Shown one piece after another: positions 32,343 through 37,614 of a DNA stretch of 64,000 nucleotides (position 1 is its first letter; each line of letters begins with the position of its first letter). The translations under genes were made by a program, and so were the position numbers. The stretch lies in sequence record OR352954; one strand, written 5' to 3'. The DNA is from Escherichia phage AV124. A model generated the notes under the pieces. The model saw nothing but the letters and a program-made list of their open reading frames with translations, was not told the origin of the DNA and made no database searches.

Positions 32343-34754
32343 TTAATCTGGGACACCAAGGATTAAATTGATGTTGCCCATATTCGATGCTTCGATCTGT
32401 TGGTCAATCATATCCTTCAGCTCTCCGGCATCCAGTTTGATAGTTATCTCACCAGAGACAGGCTCTGTCGGAATAACCATAGGCGGGGCAGCAGAAGACT
32501 TACCATTCGCCCCAGGCATCTGATTGTTCAGATAATCTAGGGTTGCCTTATCAGGCCCCCAGAGGTTAGAGAACCAGCTTCCTGTTTTTCCACTGACAAT
32601 GCTATCATGCACATTGGAGAACACTTTACCACGCTCTTCGTTGAAGTCGCTGTACGGATTATATCTGTCGTTAAGTTCAGATCCTAAAGTGAACAGGGAC
32701 AGCAGTCCACCTAAGGAACCTGCCCCTTTAAAGAACTTACCTACACGAGAGAATCTACCACCCTTAGCAGGGCCAGCTCCGCCACCACCTTCGCCACCTT
32801 TAGGCGTAGCTCCATCACCTTTACCAAAAACAGCACCAATACTCTTGATCGCCCCAGCAAGGCCTGCGATCTTAGCGAGGATGTTGAACACCCTGACCAG
32901 AGATGTTGCAAAGAATATAGCACCTATTCCCCAGCCTACCCAGTTCCATGTCTTAGAAATATCTTCCCCATTCTTTCTGAATATGGGAATATATCTTTCT
33001 AAGATCGCATTAACCATCGTAAAGGCATTATACAGAGCATAAGGTATCTTCATAAACCCGTCTATGAATCCTGCGACAAACTGCCCCACAGCTGCGGCGA
33101 GTGGACCATTAGAGTCCAAGATCTTGGCAAGGTTATTAAATGTCTCTGTCATCTTATCACCAAAACCAGATTCGAAGATCTTGTTCTGGAAGTTCATCCA
33201 AGTCTGGGTAAGGCGTTGCATAGCAACCCGGTTACCTTGTAAAGCTTTCTGTAGTGCTCCACCCTTGTTAGCAGCTTCAGCATAGTATTTAGCAACGAAC
33301 GGAAGCACTTTAGCAGCCTTCAGCTCACCCTTCTGCATCATATCCATCAATTTAGTAACGTCGATGGTGGAGTCGTTAAAAGCTTCTTGCGATGCCTTTA
33401 TGAACACCTGTAATGATCCGGGGATACCTTCAGCAAGCTGTTGCTTAAGTTCTTCAGCCATGATCTGGCCTTTACCCATCATCTGTTGAATAGCTGTAAT
33501 ACCGCGTTGGTATTTTACAGGGTCAACCTGAAGGGCAGTTGCATACTCAGAGAATGACTTGAAGAGTTGGTCGTTTTGTGATTTAGTAAGCACACCGTTT
33601 GCTGCGATAGACATTTGTGTGTAACCCTGGGCCGCTACCTTAAGGTCGAGACCTAAACGATACGCCTGGTTTCTCACAAATTCAATACGCTTACCAGCCT
33701 CTGCGGAGTCATCGGATACCATCAGCATTGTTGCTTCCATACCCTGGAAGAACTGACCCGTTTTCAGAACACTTGCAGCGGCATTAAACGCCCCGTATGC
33801 TGCTGTAACGCTGATCAATGTGCTACGTAAAGTTCTCAGACCATCATTCAGGGAAAGAGTATTAGCGCTGGCCTTACGAAGTCCAGTTTCCATAGAGGCA
33901 AGTTCTGCACGGAAATTTGATGCCTTCATGTTCCCGCTCTTCATATAGCGGTTGACTAAAGAATCATACCCCGGCATCTTTCTTGCATATTTGTCACCAT
34001 ACTTGGCACGAAGACGAACGTTGGCGTTAGAGATTGTGCTGATCTTCGCTTCACGCGCTCTTGCTCTTCTCCCTGCCTCGCGCTCTTCATCGCGAATCAT
34101 TTTCTCTCTGGCTTTATTGTCAGCCTTGTCCTGTTTTACTTGTTCTCGGCGTATTCTCGCATGGCCACGTTCCATTGCCTTGCGTTGCTGTTCAGCAACT
34201 TTCGGGTCATAAGCCGTAGCATTTGCATTGAGAATCGGAGATCCCCAGCCCTGAGAACCTTTATTTTTTAGACTCTCTTCATATGCTGCCATGCGAGCGG
34301 CAGCGATAGAAGGATTCGTACCATACGTACCATTCTTAGCCGCAAGCTTTTCTTGTTGACGCAGTTGAGCCTTTAAAGCATTATAGTTTGCCTGAGATTC
34401 TGGAGACCGTCCAGCCGTTAATCTCGATACGGCTGCTTTTCTCCTGGCTTTTTCTATCTTATCAATGGCCTCTCTTGCACGAGCTTCCTTTTTAGCCATC
34501 GCGATGTTATGTGCGGTAGTTTTTGCTGCTTCAGCTCGTTCTACTTGATTGAGACGCTTGTTTACCATCCTTGCTTGCATGGCAGAACGTTTAAGAGCAG
34601 CAGCGGGATCGGCTTTAGCAGAAGAAAAAGCTTTCCCGGTCTTTTCCCATTCGGAGCGAATTTGCTTTACAGCCTTCAAGGCGCGTCCAAAGGACGTTTT
34701 GTCAACGTCCCATGTGACCTTGTTGACTGTAGAAGTCACTATAATATTTGCCAT
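32343..34754 (-). CDS. tail tape measure protein (803 aa)
   Basis: Ala/Lys/Arg-rich coiled-coil N-terminal half, Gly-rich C-terminal segment; RBS GAGGAAA; downstream of the chaperone. Confidence 0.75.
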   Translation of the reverse strand: MANIIVTSTVNKVTWDVDKTSFGRALKAVKQIRSEWEKTGKAFSSAKADPAAALKRSAMQARMVNKRLNQVERAEAAKTTAHNIAMAKKEARAREAIDKIEKARRKAAVSRLTAGRSPESQANYNALKAQLRQQEKLAAKNGTYGTNPSIAAARMAAYEESLKNKGSQGWGSPILNANATAYDPKVAEQQRKAMERGHARIRREQVKQDKADNKAREKMIRDEEREAGRRARAREAKISTISNANVRLRAKYGDKYARKMPGYDSLVNRYMKSGNMKASNFRAELASMETGLRKASANTLSLNDGLRTLRSTLISVTAAYGAFNAAASVLKTGQFFQGMEATMLMVSDDSAEAGKRIEFVRNQAYRLGLDLKVAAQGYTQMSIAANGVLTKSQNDQLFKSFSEYATALQVDPVKYQRGITAIQQMMGKGQIMAEELKQQLAEGIPGSLQVFIKASQEAFNDSTIDVTKLMDMMQKGELKAAKVLPFVAKYYAEAANKGGALQKALQGNRVAMQRLTQTWMNFQNKIFESGFGDKMTETFNNLAKILDSNGPLAAAVGQFVAGFIDGFMKIPYALYNAFTMVNAILERYIPIFRKNGEDISKTWNWVGWGIGAIFFATSLVRVFNILAKIAGLAGAIKSIGAVFGKGDGATPKGGEGGGGAGPAKGGRFSRVGKFFKGAGSLGGLLSLFTLGSELNDRYNPYSDFNEERGKVFSNVHDSIVSGKTGSWFSNLWGPDKATLDYLNNQMPGANGKSSAAPPMVIPTEPVSGEITIKLDAGELKDMIDQQIEASNMGNINLILGVPD

Positions 34755-34804
34755 AATTTCCTCAATAAAAAAGCCAGGCTCCTGAAAAGGAACCTGGCTT
34801 GAGA

Positions 34805-35082
34805 TTAACCTCTTCTGCCTTTGCTTCGGGGTTTAGCTGCTTCGGCGTCTGCTCTCGATTTCTCTTCTTTCTCATTAACATCGTTGATGAAATCTTCGAC
34901 ATCGAGATATTCGTTTAGCTTAAGCAAATATTCCATATCGGCAGACTCAAGGGAGATATAAGATTCTCCCTTAAAGTTCTTCAGAGCACGGCACCAGAGA
35001 TAGTCGAACCACGTCAGGGAACTATTTTTTCTTGCATAATCAATAGCTCTTTGGACGACTTTAGAAATTTTGGACGGTGTTA
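34805..35082 (-). other. -1 frame extension of tail assembly chaperone (putative programmed frameshift product)
   Basis: The -1 frame stays open from inside the chaperone gene for about 90 further codons with no start codon of its own, filling the gap to the tape measure gene. Confidence 0.35.
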
Positions 35083-35559
35083 TTCCGCTGCCACTTCCGT
35101 CGGTTCCTGATCCACCGTCGCTACTTGGTGAACCATCCCGAAGTTGCCCAGAAGTCCCTGAAGGTCTGCGAAACCGTCTTTCGTGAAAAAACAGCCGTAG
35201 TTAATCTTCAGAACCTCCGCTACCAATTTGATCAGATCCAACATCTTGTCCTGGAAGATTGTATCAATATCAATCTTGCCAGCCATTCCGTTCACAGACA
35301 CATCTTCAAGGATGAGGTCGAATAATTTTTCGATATCATCTTGCTCCATCTGCTCAAACAGGTATAGAATTGCGGTAGGTAGTGCTTCAGAGAGGTTAGA
35401 CCCTCCGGTAAACAATGCACCACTAATAGTAGCCATTGGAACTGCGATATAACGACCAATCTTAGGAAGGTTTTTCATAACCTTGGACGGAGACCAGTGT
35501 GTGATTACAAAGTTCTTACCAGCCAGATCGATTTCTGTGGTAGGTCTAAAATTCATCAT
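35080..35559 (-). CDS. tail assembly chaperone (159 aa)
   Basis: Start at ATG 35559 with RBS AGGAG; lies between tube and tape measure as in contractile-tail modules. Confidence 0.5.
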   Translation of the reverse strand: MMNFRPTTEIDLAGKNFVITHWSPSKVMKNLPKIGRYIAVPMATISGALFTGGSNLSEALPTAILYLFEQMEQDDIEKLFDLILEDVSVNGMAGKIDIDTIFQDKMLDLIKLVAEVLKINYGCFFTKDGFADLQGLLGNFGMVHQVATVDQEPTEVAAE

Positions 35560-35640
35560 GTGTACGCTCCTGCGTCTTTTAAAGTGTGGATATCCATGCG
35601 TGTTTGAAAAGGCCACATCCTTGTGGCACACGAAACGCTA

Positions 35641-36114
35641 TTAGATGATACCTGCAAGGCCAGCCAGACCGAAGCCTGTAGCGTACAGAGTATCTGGGCT
35701 TAACCATGCGTCCAGGATTCCGATTTCCCAGTCCATTTGGCCTACTTCAGTACCGTAGGTCAGGTCAGGCTGTTTCTGAATCCAACCAACTGTGCTCAGA
35801 CCCATACCCTGGGAGCCTTCAAGAAGGACAGGGAAGAAAATCAGACCAGTGATGGAAGCTTGTTTCTGCCAGTTAGCCAAGTACCCGTTCCATACCGAAG
35901 TGTTCTGTAGAGAGACAGTCAGGACACCAGATTGGTTACGAGACAGCGCTGCTGACAGTTCACCATCAACCCCCATGTGGGGGATGATGTTATCTTCGTT
36001 GCGAGCAACGACGATCTTGGTATCCGCTGCGAACCCAGTGACGCGCTGAGTCATCATATAGAGACGCGCTTTCTGTGGGTCGTAGGCATACGGGGTTAAA
36101 ATTCTTGTATCCAT
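35641..36114 (-). CDS. tail tube protein (157 aa)
   Basis: Size and position directly downstream of sheath gene; RBS AGGAGTG. Confidence 0.55.
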   Translation of the reverse strand: MDTRILTPYAYDPQKARLYMMTQRVTGFAADTKIVVARNEDNIIPHMGVDGELSAALSRNQSGVLTVSLQNTSVWNGYLANWQKQASITGLIFFPVLLEGSQGMGLSTVGWIQKQPDLTYGTEVGQMDWEIGILDAWLSPDTLYATGFGLAGLAGII

Positions 36115-36117
36115 TTA

Positions 36118-37614
36118 TTACACTCCTGCTGTTACTTGTCCGCTGGAAGAAGTAGACCCGGTTTTGTCTAGCAGAACAGAGATGCGAATCTTGACGAAAT
36201 GCAAGGAACTGTTGTAGACTAACTCTACCTTAACATTGTTAAGGGTACGAGATGCAAGGTCGTTAGATGGGATGCTTGCACGAAGCGGAATTGTTACAAC
36301 CGGATCGTAGAACACCTTGTTGACGGAATCATATCCGGTCAAAATAGACCCATTAGTGATACCGACGTTCAGAGGACTGTTCATCAGGACTGCTTTTAGG
36401 TTCGGCATATCATCATCGCTCATCTTCATGGAAAGGCCAAGATTAGAACGGCGAGACATATATGCGAAGATACTCTCTTCACTTCTGAATTTCAGCCAGT
36501 GTCCGAAACGAACTACGTCAACATACTGACCGGAAGCACACTTACCTTCCCAGAATGCACCAACACCATTAATCATACGATAGAAGTTCAGGTTCTGTCC
36601 CCAAATTGTTGGGCGATCGGAAGAACTGAGTGTTGGAGCAACTACGCCAGGCATTGTCTTCAGGTGAATAGAATCACCATATGAAGGATCATTAGAAGCC
36701 ATAGCCCCTATGATTCCTCCTTCGGAGAATGCACTATCCGCAAGAGGGTCGTACATACCAATACTGGTATCATATTGGAGAGCTTTTAGCTGATTAGCGA
36801 TAGAATTGCCATCAACAACCAAGGATAGTTGGTCAGCTGTTGAATATACATGCAGCTTATAATTAGCAGATGCATAAGCGGCTGCACCAAGAATCGCAGA
36901 TGCAATATGTTGCTCTGTACTCAGGAAATACCAGTTGTTATTTGCGGTTTCAATCTCCGGGAGAATTCCGCTAACTGTTTCCGTAGAGGTATTTGTAAGT
37001 GTACAATTACCATAATCGATACCGATGCTGAATGGCTCGCCGATAACATCAGAAGATGTTGCCATAATGCCCTGGTCAGATTCGGTTGTAACCACCTCGT
37101 CATTGTTAGTCGCCAGCAGAGAGCCGTCGCCTTTCGGGGTGATTGTTACAACACCAGCGGTAGCTACTGCACCGACAATTACGTTAAGCGTGGTATCAGA
37201 GTTGATTGCAGATGCTAGGGCTGTTGCAATACTGTCTGGCGTAGATGCGGCAGTAACAGGAATAACGATGCTTTTAGTATATGCGCCTGCTGCAACGTTG
37301 AAACTTACCGGGTTATTAGGATCTACGTTTGTCTGCCCTGTGAAATTGATAACTGTTGATTCCCATGCTTGTCTTCCGATCATAAGCGCTTGGGGGCGGA
37401 AAGTCCCAGCAAAGGCTTTTGTCGCAAAAGTATACGCAGGGGAACCTACAGCGAAACCATCCGCAGCGAGTTCATCCAGATCTGTATATGTACGTACTCG
37501 TTCTGGGAAAACGTTGTGAATTGCGATAAATAGAGGGGTTTCAAACCCTACGGTGTCGATTGGTTGTGTCCCGAGAACAACCGTTACGTCAACAACCTTA
37601 TCATTATAAGCCAT
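36118..37614 (-). CDS. tail sheath protein (498 aa)
   Basis: Size, composition and position upstream of tube; RBS GAGGAAA. Confidence 0.6.
   Translation of the reverse strand: MAYNDKVVDVTVVLGTQPIDTVGFETPLFIAIHNVFPERVRTYTDLDELAADGFAVGSPAYTFATKAFAGTFRPQALMIGRQAWESTVINFTGQTNVDPNNPVSFNVAAGAYTKSIVIPVTAASTPDSIATALASAINSDTTLNVIVGAVATAGVVTITPKGDGSLLATNNDEVVTTESDQGIMATSSDVIGEPFSIGIDYGNCTLTNTSTETVSGILPEIETANNNWYFLSTEQHIASAILGAAAYASANYKLHVYSTADQLSLVVDGNSIANQLKALQYDTSIGMYDPLADSAFSEGGIIGAMASNDPSYGDSIHLKTMPGVVAPTLSSSDRPTIWGQNLNFYRMINGVGAFWEGKCASGQYVDVVRFGHWLKFRSEESIFAYMSRRSNLGLSMKMSDDDMPNLKAVLMNSPLNVGITNGSILTGYDSVNKVFYDPVVTIPLRASIPSNDLASRTLNNVKVELVYNSSLHFVKIRISVLLDKTGSTSSSGQVTAGV

What the first reader, a model, noticed from the sequence alone, without database searches (positions are those of the whole stretch)
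34805..35559. Probable -1 programmed frameshift in the tail assembly chaperone
The chaperone ORF ends at 35080, but the -1 frame is open from inside the gene for about 90 further codons to 34805, with no start codon of its own. That is the arrangement of the frameshifted chaperone pairs found upstream of tape measure genes. I did not identify a canonical slippery heptamer by eye.
Basis: partly seen in the sequence, partly recalled or inferred. Interest (0 to 1): 0.4.

Follow-up and report, generated by a model that had tools for sequence, protein, structure and literature searches.

The report
Frameshifted tail chaperone gene pair
This Klebsiella phage almost certainly makes a short and a long version of its tail assembly chaperone by letting some ribosomes slip back one base at a conserved TTTTTTC site, a well-known phage trick that is not annotated in any of the 14 related genome records I opened.

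Summary
All genes here are on the minus strand.

- **Gene order:** sheath, tube, a 159-aa tail assembly chaperone (35559..35080, Pfam PF21822), then the tape measure gene.
- **The -1 frame:** it is open from 35200 to the stop at 34807..34805. That is 40 codons overlapping the chaperone and 91 codons beyond its stop. It has no ATG, GTG or TTG before 34936.
- **The slippery site:** It is the only X_XXY_YYZ motif in frame in the gene.
- **Conservation:** the heptamer is invariant in 34 related loci, 16 of them non-redundant and as low as 50% nucleotide identity. The third base of the preceding codon stays T even when that codon changes from Cys to Ser.
- **The -1 segment is coding:** it shows a coding substitution pattern in that frame.
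- **More distant relatives:** three keep T_TTT_TTC, including phi92. One has G_GGA_AAG and one has A_AAT_TTT at the equivalent place. This favours ribosomal slippage over transcriptional slippage.
- **No stimulatory RNA:** I found no conserved downstream RNA structure.
- **Predicted product:** a 251-aa G-T fusion.

This is a new member of a known kind (lambda G/GT, P2 E/E+E'). None of the 14 related GenBank records I opened annotates it.

The parts
35080..35559 (-). Short chaperone gene (G, or TAC-N), 159 aa. ATG at 35559, TAA at 35082..35080, and an AGGAG ribosome-binding site at 35571..35567.
   Evidence: Pfam PF21822 Phage_TAC_15, E=1.7e-27, residues 14-130. phrog_3840 'tail assembly chaperone', E=1.4e-69. 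All 102 homologs found are 149-162 aa.
35185..35191 (-). Slippery heptamer T_TTT_TTC in the zero frame of G. The P-site codon is TTT (F124) and the A-site codon is TTC (F125).
   Evidence: It is the only in-frame X_XXY_YYZ in G. It is invariant in 34 related loci. Codon 123 varies (TGT, AGT, TCT) but its third base is always T. Elsewhere in G only 2 of 119 third positions are invariant.
35080..35184 (-). Dual-coding overlap. The zero frame encodes the C-terminal tail of G (residues 126-159). The -1 frame encodes a basic stretch (HERRFRRP) and a Gly/Ser-rich linker.
   Evidence: Zero-frame codon-position divergence is 0.42/0.29/0.46 here, against 0.30/0.17/0.60 upstream. With random synonymous codons the -1 frame stays open only 1-18% of the time, yet it is open in all 16 non-redundant loci.
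34805..35185 (-). The -1-frame segment read after the slip: 126 codons from CAC at 35185..35183 to TAA at 34807..34805. The conserved T-domain core lies at about 35080..34808.
   Evidence: Codon-position divergence in the -1 frame beyond G's stop is 0.32/0.27/0.60, a coding pattern. phrog_10409, E=8e-40. There are 27 invariant residues among 16 homologs. There is no conserved start codon. Database homologs are orphan ORFs of 51-130 aa with arbitrary starts.
34805..35559 (-). Predicted fusion product GT (TAC-NC), 251 aa. It is G residues 1-125 followed by HERRFRRPSG...RRG, from 35559..35185 joined to 35185..34805 (base 35185 is read twice).
   Evidence: Inferred. Not observed experimentally.
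35641..36114 (-). Tail tube gene (157 aa), directly upstream.
   Evidence: PF11681, E=1.4e-7. phrog_280. Annotated as a virion structural protein in relatives.
32343..34754 (-). Tape measure protein gene (803 aa), directly downstream.
   Evidence: PF20155 TMP_3, E=5.5e-15. phrog_5255, E=0.

Best explanation
**What it is.** This is the two-product tail assembly chaperone locus of a Klebsiella myovirus. The window is 99% identical to Klebsiella phage DP and belongs with genus Mydovirus, subfamily Vequintavirinae (rV5-like).

**How it most likely works.**
- Most ribosomes translate the 159-aa chaperone G and stop at 35080.
- A minority slip back one base when tRNA-Phe occupies both the P site (UUU, F124) and the A site (UUC, F125) on U_UUU_UUC at 35191..35185. 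Both tRNAs can re-pair with UUU in the -1 frame.
- Translation then continues with CAC (35185) through a basic stretch, a Gly/Ser-rich linker and an ~85-residue helical T domain, ending at 34805. The result is a 251-aa G-T fusion.

**Inferred function.** By analogy with lambda gpG/gpGT, the shared G part would coat the tape measure protein. The T domain of the rare long form would recruit the tube protein. Neither protein would stay in the virion.

**Shown versus inferred.**
- Shown from sequence: the anatomy, the heptamer, its nucleotide-level conservation, the coding signature of the -1 segment, and the lack of an independent start.
- Inferred: that slippage actually occurs, that it is ribosomal, how efficient it is, and what the two proteins bind.
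For: **Family and position.** G is a tail assembly chaperone by HMM and lies between the tube and tape measure genes.

**Slip site.**
- T_TTT_TTC is the only in-frame X_XXY_YYZ in G.
- It is invariant in 34 related loci, 16 of them non-redundant at under 95% and down to 50% nucleotide identity.
- The third positions of codons 120, 123, 124 and 125 never vary. Elsewhere in G only 2 of 119 third positions are invariant.
- Codon 123 changes from Cys (TGT) to Ser (AGT or TCT) but keeps its final T.
- In L020 a -1-frame TAG directly abuts the heptamer, so the shift cannot happen upstream of it.

**The -1 segment is coding and linked to the site.**
- Beyond G's stop its third codon positions are the most variable (0.32/0.27/0.60).
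- With random synonymous codons the -1 frame would close within the overlap 82-99% of the time, yet it is open in all 16 loci.

**No independent expression.**
- No start codon is conserved.
- Annotators resorted to what the coordinates imply is a CTG start (rV5), an ATT start (PVP-SE1), or an internal ATG.
- No in-frame G-T fusion appears among the hits of two searches of the 5.8-billion-protein database.

**Distant relatives point to ribosomal slippage.** Relatives of the same chaperone family carry a canonical heptamer at the equivalent place, leading into a homologous -1 T domain.
- T_TTT_TTC in phi92, Pseudomonas phage PsgM04F and Aeromonas phage 4L372XY.
- G_GGA_AAG in Rheinheimera phage Barba.
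- A_AAT_TTT in Vibrio phage 249E41-1.
- The last two are not homopolymer runs.

**Structure.** In the AlphaFold model of G (pLDDT 72) the last core helix, 106-125, ends exactly at the slip codon.

**Literature.**
- UUY A-site codons and all-pyrimidine heptamers are frameshift-prone in E. coli (PMC4066793).
- P2 E/E+E' uses TTTTTTG, and no downstream structure is reported for it (PMC3091744).
- A conserved -1 frameshift at a GTTTTT motif was proposed for the chaperones of the related Vandenendeviridae and Andersonviridae (PMC12846349).
Against: - No protein or RNA data exist here, so the fusion product has not been seen.
- No stimulatory element was found. RNAalifold predicts 0 pairs over the 100 nt from the heptamer. 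Fold z-scores are +0.8, +0.2, -0.7 and -1.3. Rfam gives nothing.
- An SD-like GGAG or GAGG about 14 nt upstream of the heptamer is present in 12 of 16 relatives but not in this window.
- Without stimulators, heptamers gave only 2-10 times background in the E. coli reporter study, so efficiency may be low.
- Part of the heptamer's invariance could come from dual coding if the -1-frame Phe-Phe were translated.
- The site lies 34 codons before G's stop rather than at its very end.
- The T-domain model has low confidence (pLDDT 53), and no solved chaperone structure matched G convincingly.
Confidence: 0.85

Rival explanations
1. Transcriptional slippage. RNA polymerase stutters on the T6 run and adds one extra U to a fraction of the mRNAs. 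Ordinary translation of those mRNAs gives exactly the same 251-aa G-T fusion.
For: - The site is a homopolymer run of six T, and it is conserved as a run.
- No ribosomal stimulator was found.
- The protein product would be identical, so protein data cannot separate the two mechanisms.
- The Sharma paper notes that long A or U runs can yield indels in mRNA through transcriptional slippage.
Against: - Six T is short compared with the runs usually linked to productive slippage by bacterial RNA polymerase (my own knowledge, not tested here).
- Homologous loci in Rheinheimera phage Barba (G_GGA_AAG) and Vibrio phage 249E41-1 (A_AAT_TTT) reach the same -1 T domain from heptamers that are not homopolymers. 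These fit tRNA re-pairing and not polymerase stuttering.
- In every locus the run sits in the X_XXY_YYZ phase.
Confidence: 0.08
2. Independent initiation. The -1-frame segment is a separate small gene, translated either from a non-canonical start just before the heptamer (CTG at 35194..35192) or from the internal ATG at 34936.
For: - GenBank records annotate it as a separate gene: rV5 gp050 (its coordinates imply a CTG start), PVP-SE1 gp057 (its coordinates imply an ATT start), and a 43-aa ORF in BIS47.
- In the Henunavirus loci L006 and L007 the -1-frame codon before the heptamer is ATG, with a GGAG 11-12 nt upstream.
- Database gene callers report orphan ORFs of 51-130 aa.
Against: - The codon before the heptamer is CTG in 11 loci, ATG in 2, TTG in 1, ATC in 1, and a TAG stop in L020. 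It is therefore not a conserved start.
- The window has no ATG, GTG or TTG for 88 codons.
- The ATG at 34936 lies in the middle of the conserved domain. Some 45 conserved codons upstream of it would be left unexplained.
- The called ORFs start at different, arbitrary positions.
- Independent initiation does not explain why the -1 frame stays open across the whole overlap back to the heptamer.
Confidence: 0.04
3. Nothing functional. The open -1 frame is either a chance ORF or the remnant of a single gene broken by a frameshift mutation or a sequencing error.
For: In one sequence alone an in-frame heptamer in a 36-codon overlap is not rare. About 0.11 are expected.
Against: - The open frame alone has P=0.0024 in shuffles.
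- The same two-frame arrangement is present in all 39 loci, from several genera and subfamilies.
- Both G's own C-terminal tail and the T domain are conserved as proteins.
- No in-frame fusion exists among the homologs found.
Confidence: 0.01

Closest known systems
Phage lambda gpG/gpGT tail assembly chaperones (Levin, Hendrix, Casjens 1993; Xu, Hendrix, Duda 2004, 2013, 2014)
   Same: - Two products from one start.
- The locus lies between the tail tube gene and the tape measure gene.
- A -1 shift occurs on an in-frame X_XXY_YYZ heptamer.
- The downstream frame has no start of its own.
- A long minor form and a short major form are expected.
- One distant relative of this locus (Rheinheimera phage Barba) even uses lambda's heptamer, G_GGA_AAG.
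   Different: - The heptamer here is T_TTT_TTC.
- It lies 34 codons before G's stop, so G has its own conserved C-terminal tail that the fusion lacks.
- This is a contractile-tail phage.
- G belongs to a different Pfam family (PF21822), and no sequence similarity to lambda G was detected.
- The lambda ratio of about 30:1 cannot be assumed here.
Phage P2 E / E+E' (Christie et al. 2002)
   Same: - It is a myovirus.
- It uses a -1 frameshift on a T-run heptamer (TTTTTTG in P2, TTTTTTC here).
- No downstream RNA structure is reported (PMC3091744).
- The locus sits upstream of the tape measure gene.
   Different: - P2 E is 91 aa and E+E' is 142 aa. Here the two products are 159 and 251 aa.
- The Pfam scan returned only PF21822, so sequence-family membership with P2 E is not supported.
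Proposed -1 frameshift at a conserved GTTTTT motif in the chaperone genes of Vandenendeviridae (Pakpunavirus) and Andersonviridae (PMC12846349, December 2025)
   Same: - That paper describes those myovirus clades as related to Vequintavirinae.
- The motif type is the same: TGTTTTTTC here contains GTTTTT.
- The downstream piece is likewise routinely annotated as a hypothetical protein.
- The evidence is of the same comparative kind.
   Different: - As far as the passages I read show, that paper tested Vandenendeviridae and Andersonviridae and not Vequintavirinae.
- I did not fetch a Pakpunavirus or Felix O1-like locus to align the sites directly.
- In one lineage here the base before the run is C, not G (TCT TTT TTC in L021-L025).

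Membership tests
lambda G/GT-type frameshifted tail assembly chaperone pair (Xu, Hendrix, Duda 2004) | The locus lies between the major tail (tube) gene and the tape measure gene. | tested here: met
   Tube 36114..35641, G 35559..35080, tape measure 34754..32343, all on the minus strand.
lambda G/GT-type frameshifted tail assembly chaperone pair (Xu, Hendrix, Duda 2004) | The upstream ORF is a tail assembly chaperone. | tested here: met
lambda G/GT-type frameshifted tail assembly chaperone pair (Xu, Hendrix, Duda 2004) | A second reading frame overlaps the 3' part of G, is shifted by -1, and has no initiation site of its own. | tested here: met
   The -1 frame is open from 35200 to 34805. There is no ATG, GTG or TTG before 34936, and no start codon is conserved among 16 relatives.
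lambda G/GT-type frameshifted tail assembly chaperone pair (Xu, Hendrix, Duda 2004) | A slippery X_XXY_YYZ heptamer lies in the zero frame inside the overlap. | tested here: met
   T_TTT_TTC at 35191..35185.
lambda G/GT-type frameshifted tail assembly chaperone pair (Xu, Hendrix, Duda 2004) | The two-frame arrangement and the shift site are conserved among relatives. | tested here: met
   34 loci carry the identical heptamer. 5 more distant loci carry T_TTT_TTC, G_GGA_AAG or A_AAT_TTT at the equivalent place.
lambda G/GT-type frameshifted tail assembly chaperone pair (Xu, Hendrix, Duda 2004) | A frameshift fusion protein is made at a low, fixed ratio to G and is needed for tail assembly. | not testable with these tools
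   This needs western blotting, mass spectrometry and mutagenesis. The rV5 proteomics paper does not mention frameshifting or the chaperone.
lambda G/GT-type frameshifted tail assembly chaperone pair (Xu, Hendrix, Duda 2004) | The G part binds the tape measure protein, and the T domain binds the tube protein. | not testable with these tools
   The T-domain model was of low confidence (pLDDT 53). No interaction data exist.
P2 E/E+E' sequence family | Sequence homology to P2 gpE. | tested here: not met
   The Pfam scan of G at E<=0.1 returned only PF21822. The resemblance is in mechanism (a T-run heptamer, no downstream structure) and not in family.
Productive transcriptional slippage sites | The site is a homopolymer run that does not depend on codon phase or on tRNA re-pairing rules. 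| tested here: inconclusive
   The window has a T6 run, which is compatible. Homologous loci with G_GGA_AAG and A_AAT_TTT are not homopolymers. RNA data would be needed to settle this.
-1 frameshift sites with a 3' stimulatory stem-loop or pseudoknot (IS3/IS911, dnaX type) | A conserved RNA structure lies 5-9 nt downstream of the heptamer. | tested here: not met
   RNAalifold predicts 0 pairs on 14 sequences. z-scores are +0.77, +0.22, -0.68 and -1.26. There is no Rfam match.

The most novel reading that the evidence does not exclude
The shift site may be an ancient fixed point of this chaperone fold, not a mere extension signal.

- It sits exactly at the end of the last core helix (residue 125).
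- It has been kept at that structural position across Vequintavirinae, phi92-like, Plateaulakevirus, Barbavirus and marine Vibrio phages, while the heptamer itself turned over (T_TTT_TTC, G_GGA_AAG, A_AAT_TTT).
- It swaps one conserved C-terminal module (G's own helix and acidic tail, residues 126-159) for another (linker plus T domain).

On this reading the short and long forms would differ by alternative modules that might compete for a partner, rather than by a simple add-on. The site would work without any RNA stimulator.
Probability: 0.3. Interest if true: 0.4.

Novelty: new member of a known kind. Interest (0 to 1): 0.25.

Why it matters
**Annotation.**
- At least 195 phage records in the collection carry this locus.
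- None of the 14 records I opened annotates the frameshift.
- The T segment is instead called as an orphan hypothetical protein of 43-122 aa with arbitrary starts, some of them non-canonical.
- Recognising the site gives the correct 251-aa product for Mydovirus, Vequintavirus, Seunavirus, Henunavirus, Certrevirus-like and phi92-like phages. Many of these are being developed for therapy against Klebsiella, E. coli, Salmonella and Cronobacter.

**Engineering.** The long form is expected to be essential for tail assembly. Recoding or synonymous redesign of this region would therefore be risky.

**Biology.** The finding adds little that is new in principle. It is one more lineage using the lambda/P2 strategy. 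It does offer a clear example of heptamer turnover at a fixed position.

Tried and rejected
- **Downstream stimulatory RNA.** I folded 45, 65, 85 and 121 nt after the heptamer in the window. z-scores were +0.22, +0.77, -0.68 and -1.26. RNAalifold on 14 diverse sequences predicted 0 pairs. A small hairpin, CGAAA-GACGG-TTTCG, starts 1 nt after the heptamer in some loci but is absent in rV5, L020, L021 and the L027 clade. Rejected.
- **Rfam scan of 34700..35700.** Only two chance-level hits, at E about 0.7-0.8.
- **Upstream Shine-Dalgarno-like stimulator.** GGAG or GAGG lies about 14 nt before the heptamer in 12 of 16 relatives. The window has GAAG there, and its GGAGG is 22 nt upstream. Not conserved and left as a weak idea.
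- **In-frame G-T fusions in nature.** Two searches of the 5.8-billion-protein set found none. G hits were 149-162 aa and T hits 51-130 aa.
- **Function of the T domain from structure.** The AlphaFold model was too poor to search with (pLDDT 53). Pfam has no match to it.
- **Literature.** The rV5 genome and proteome paper has no mention of frameshifting or the chaperone. Searches combining Vequintavirinae genus names with 'frameshift' found no description of this site. The Christie 2002 P2 paper is not held in the library.

Full report
**1. What is in the sequence**

The genes of this region lie on the minus strand. In order they are:
- a tail sheath gene (37614..36118; phrog_205, E=1.8e-110);
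- a tail tube gene (36114..35641; PF11681 and phrog_280);
- a 159-aa ORF (35559..35080);
- an 803-aa tape measure gene (34754..32343; PF20155, and phrog_5255 with E=0).

The 159-aa ORF starts at an ATG preceded by AGGAG at a 7-nt spacing, and it ends with TAA at 35082..35080. It is a tail assembly chaperone by HMM. Pfam PF21822 (Phage_TAC_15) matches residues 14-130 with E=1.7e-27, and phrog_3840 matches with E=1.4e-69.

The -1 frame opens after a TAA at 35203..35201 and runs for 131 codons to a TAA at 34807..34805. Forty of those codons overlap the chaperone and 91 lie beyond its stop. The first ATG, GTG or TTG in that frame is at 34936, only 43 codons before the end.

**2.

The chaperone contains exactly one in-frame X_XXY_YYZ heptamer. 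It is T_TTT_TTC at 35191..35185, read as TGT TTT TTC for C123, F124 and F125.
- After a -1 slip the two Phe-tRNAs re-pair with UUU UUU.
- The next codon read is CAC at 35185..35183.
- The predicted fusion is G residues 1-125 followed by HERRFRRPSGTSGQLRDGSPSSDGGSGTDGSGSGITPSKISKVV...GRRG, 251 aa in all.

**3. Is it more than chance?**

- In 20,000 shuffles the -1 frame stayed open for at least 91 codons past the stop in 0.24% of trials. It did so together with an in-frame heptamer in 0.01%.
- A single in-frame heptamer in a 36-codon overlap is not rare in itself. About 0.11 are expected. The weight of the evidence therefore lies in the comparative data.

**4. Comparative evidence**

The window is 99% identical to Klebsiella phage DP and about 97-98% identical to BIS47, Ro1, Mydo and KB57. 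These belong to genus Mydovirus, subfamily Vequintavirinae, the rV5-like phages.

I collected 34 homologous loci from annotated phage records and IMG/VR. They include rV5, PVP-SE1, GAP31, FENT2, Hena1, pEp_SNUABM_01, TH18, JEP1 and Certrevirus-like contigs. Sixteen are non-redundant at 95%, and pairwise nucleotide identity falls as low as 50%.

In every locus T_TTT_TTC is present in the zero frame at the same codon, and the -1 frame is open for 86-93 codons past G's stop.

The heptamer is conserved at the nucleotide level:
- The third positions of codons 120, 123, 124 and 125 never vary.
- Only 2 of the 119 other third positions in G are invariant.
- Codon 123 changes from TGT (Cys) to AGT or TCT (Ser) yet keeps its final T.

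In L020 a -1-frame TAG abuts the heptamer. The shift therefore cannot occur upstream of it.

Codon-position divergence (positions 1/2/3) shows which frames are coding:

| Segment | Frame | Divergence |
|---|---|---|
| G upstream of the site | zero | 0.30/0.17/0.60 |
| Beyond G's stop | -1 | 0.32/0.27/0.60 |
| Overlap | zero | 0.42/0.29/0.46 |

- The first two rows are typical coding patterns.
- In the overlap the third-position freedom is reduced, as expected for dual coding.
- With G's tail protein held fixed and synonymous codons drawn at random, the -1 frame would stay open across the overlap in only 1-18% of trials (7.4% for the window). It is open in all 16 loci.

**5. More distant relatives and the mechanism**

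A tblastn search with G found weaker relatives at 27-40% identity, with the match ending near residue 121-133 in the five loci I fetched. I fetched five of them:
- phi92, Pseudomonas phage PsgM04F and Aeromonas phage 4L372XY keep T_TTT_TTC.
- Rheinheimera phage Barba has G_GGA_AAG four codons downstream of the equivalent position.
- Vibrio phage 249E41-1 has A_AAT_TTT.

In all five the -1 frame leads into a recognisably homologous T domain of 75-98 codons beyond the stop. The heptamer sequence has turned over while its X_XXY_YYZ phase has been kept. That is what tRNA re-pairing predicts. A polymerase-stuttering model would not predict it, because two of these sites are not homopolymers.

**6. 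No independent start**

- In the -1 frame the codon just before the heptamer is CTG in 11 loci, ATG in 2, TTG in 1, ATC in 1 and TAG in 1. No other start is conserved.
- Annotators have forced unusual solutions. The coordinates of rV5 gp050 imply a CTG start inside gp051. Those of PVP-SE1 gp057 imply an ATT start. BIS47 has a 43-aa ORF from the internal ATG.
- T-domain homologs in the 5.8-billion-protein set are orphan ORFs of 51-130 aa starting at arbitrary points. No in-frame G-T fusion was found.
- None of the 14 records I opened annotates ribosomal slippage.

**7. Stimulators**

I found none.
- RNAalifold predicts no pairs in the 100 nt from the heptamer.
- Single-sequence folds are no better than shuffles.
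- Rfam has no match.
- An SD-like GGAG or GAGG lies about 14 nt upstream in 12 of 16 relatives, but the window has GAAG there.

This is not unusual for the class. P2 uses TTTTTTG, and no downstream structure is reported for it (PMC3091744). In E. coli, UUY A-site codons and all-pyrimidine heptamers are among the more shift-prone motifs. Without stimulators, however, heptamers gave only 2-10 times background (PMC4066793). The efficiency here cannot be predicted.

**8. Structure**

- The AlphaFold model of G has mean pLDDT 72. Its long last core helix (106-125) ends exactly at the slip codon. A short helix (127-139) and a disordered acidic tail follow. G and GT therefore share the chaperone core and differ in their C-terminal module.
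- The T-segment model has low confidence (pLDDT 53). It suggests about 40 residues of coil followed by short helices. I did not use it for fold searches.
- PDB searches with G gave nothing convincing.

**9. Explanation and rivals**

- **Best (0.85):** programmed -1 ribosomal frameshifting at U_UUU_UUC yields a minor 251-aa G-T fusion beside the major 159-aa G. By analogy with lambda, G coats the tape measure protein and T recruits the tube protein (review PMC5009743). The roles are inferred.
- **Transcriptional slippage on T6 (0.08):** it gives the same protein and is not excluded for this phage.
- **Independent initiation (0.04).**
- **Chance or error (0.01).**

**10. Comparison with what is known**

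This is the lambda G/GT and P2 E/E+E' strategy. All the sequence-level defining features are met. The protein-level features cannot be tested here.

The nearest published statement is the December 2025 phage Adele paper. It proposes a conserved -1 frameshift at a GTTTTT motif in the chaperones of Vandenendeviridae and Andersonviridae, clades it describes as related to Vequintavirinae (PMC12846349). I found no paper and no database record describing the site in Vequintavirinae.

**11. Verdict**

One correction applies: a canonical heptamer is present at 35191..35185.
- It is a new member of a known kind.
- Its interest is modest. It is mainly an annotation fix for a large and therapeutically relevant phage group, plus a tidy example of heptamer turnover at a fixed structural position.

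Noticed in passing
window 34771..34800 (minus strand): A terminator-like hairpin lies between the -1-frame stop (34805) and the tape measure ATG (34754). It has a 13-bp stem (AAGCCAGGTTCC / GGAGCCTGGCTT), a TTTT loop, and a following TTTTATT. The rV5 RefSeq record annotates a Rho-independent terminator at the same place. It could attenuate tape measure transcription relative to the sheath, tube and chaperone genes.
   Followed up: partly
L036 (Rheinheimera phage Barba33A) and L039 (Vibrio phage 249E41-1), chaperone genes at 817-1287 and 811-1329: Distant relatives of the same chaperone family carry different canonical heptamers at the equivalent position. Barba has G_GGA_AAG, the lambda heptamer, and the Vibrio phage has A_AAT_TTT. 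Each leads into a homologous -1 T domain, so the slip site has turned over at a fixed place.
   Followed up: partly
L036 1526-2145 and L037 1722-2127: In Barba33A and Aeromonas phage 4L372XY, the gene after the chaperone pair within the fetched stretch is not a tape measure gene. It is a putative DNA-binding protein on the opposite strand in Barba33A and an endonuclease in 4L372XY. Something may be inserted between the chaperone and the tape measure gene.
   Followed up: no
L006 and L007 (Erwinia Henunavirus), just before the heptamer: The zero-frame Gly codon is GGA instead of GGC. This creates an ATG in the -1 frame immediately before TTTTTT, with a GGAG 11-12 nt upstream. Gene callers then produce a 130-aa 'MFFHEGRFRR...' ORF, as in P0104. 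It may be an accidental secondary route to a free T protein in that genus.
   Followed up: partly
search hits H56, H60, H81, H83 (records named 'Campylobacter phage' C15, A135, A112b, A141): Eighteen records labelled as Campylobacter phages match this locus at the same identity as E. coli rV5-like phages. They look like Vequintavirus genomes, so the host labels may be wrong or the samples may have been contaminated.
   Followed up: no
window 35214..35218 (minus strand): A GGAGG lies 22 nt upstream of the heptamer in the window. Most relatives instead have GGAG or GAGG about 14 nt upstream. It may be a weak internal Shine-Dalgarno-type stimulator, or it may simply reflect the Glu codons.
   Followed up: partly
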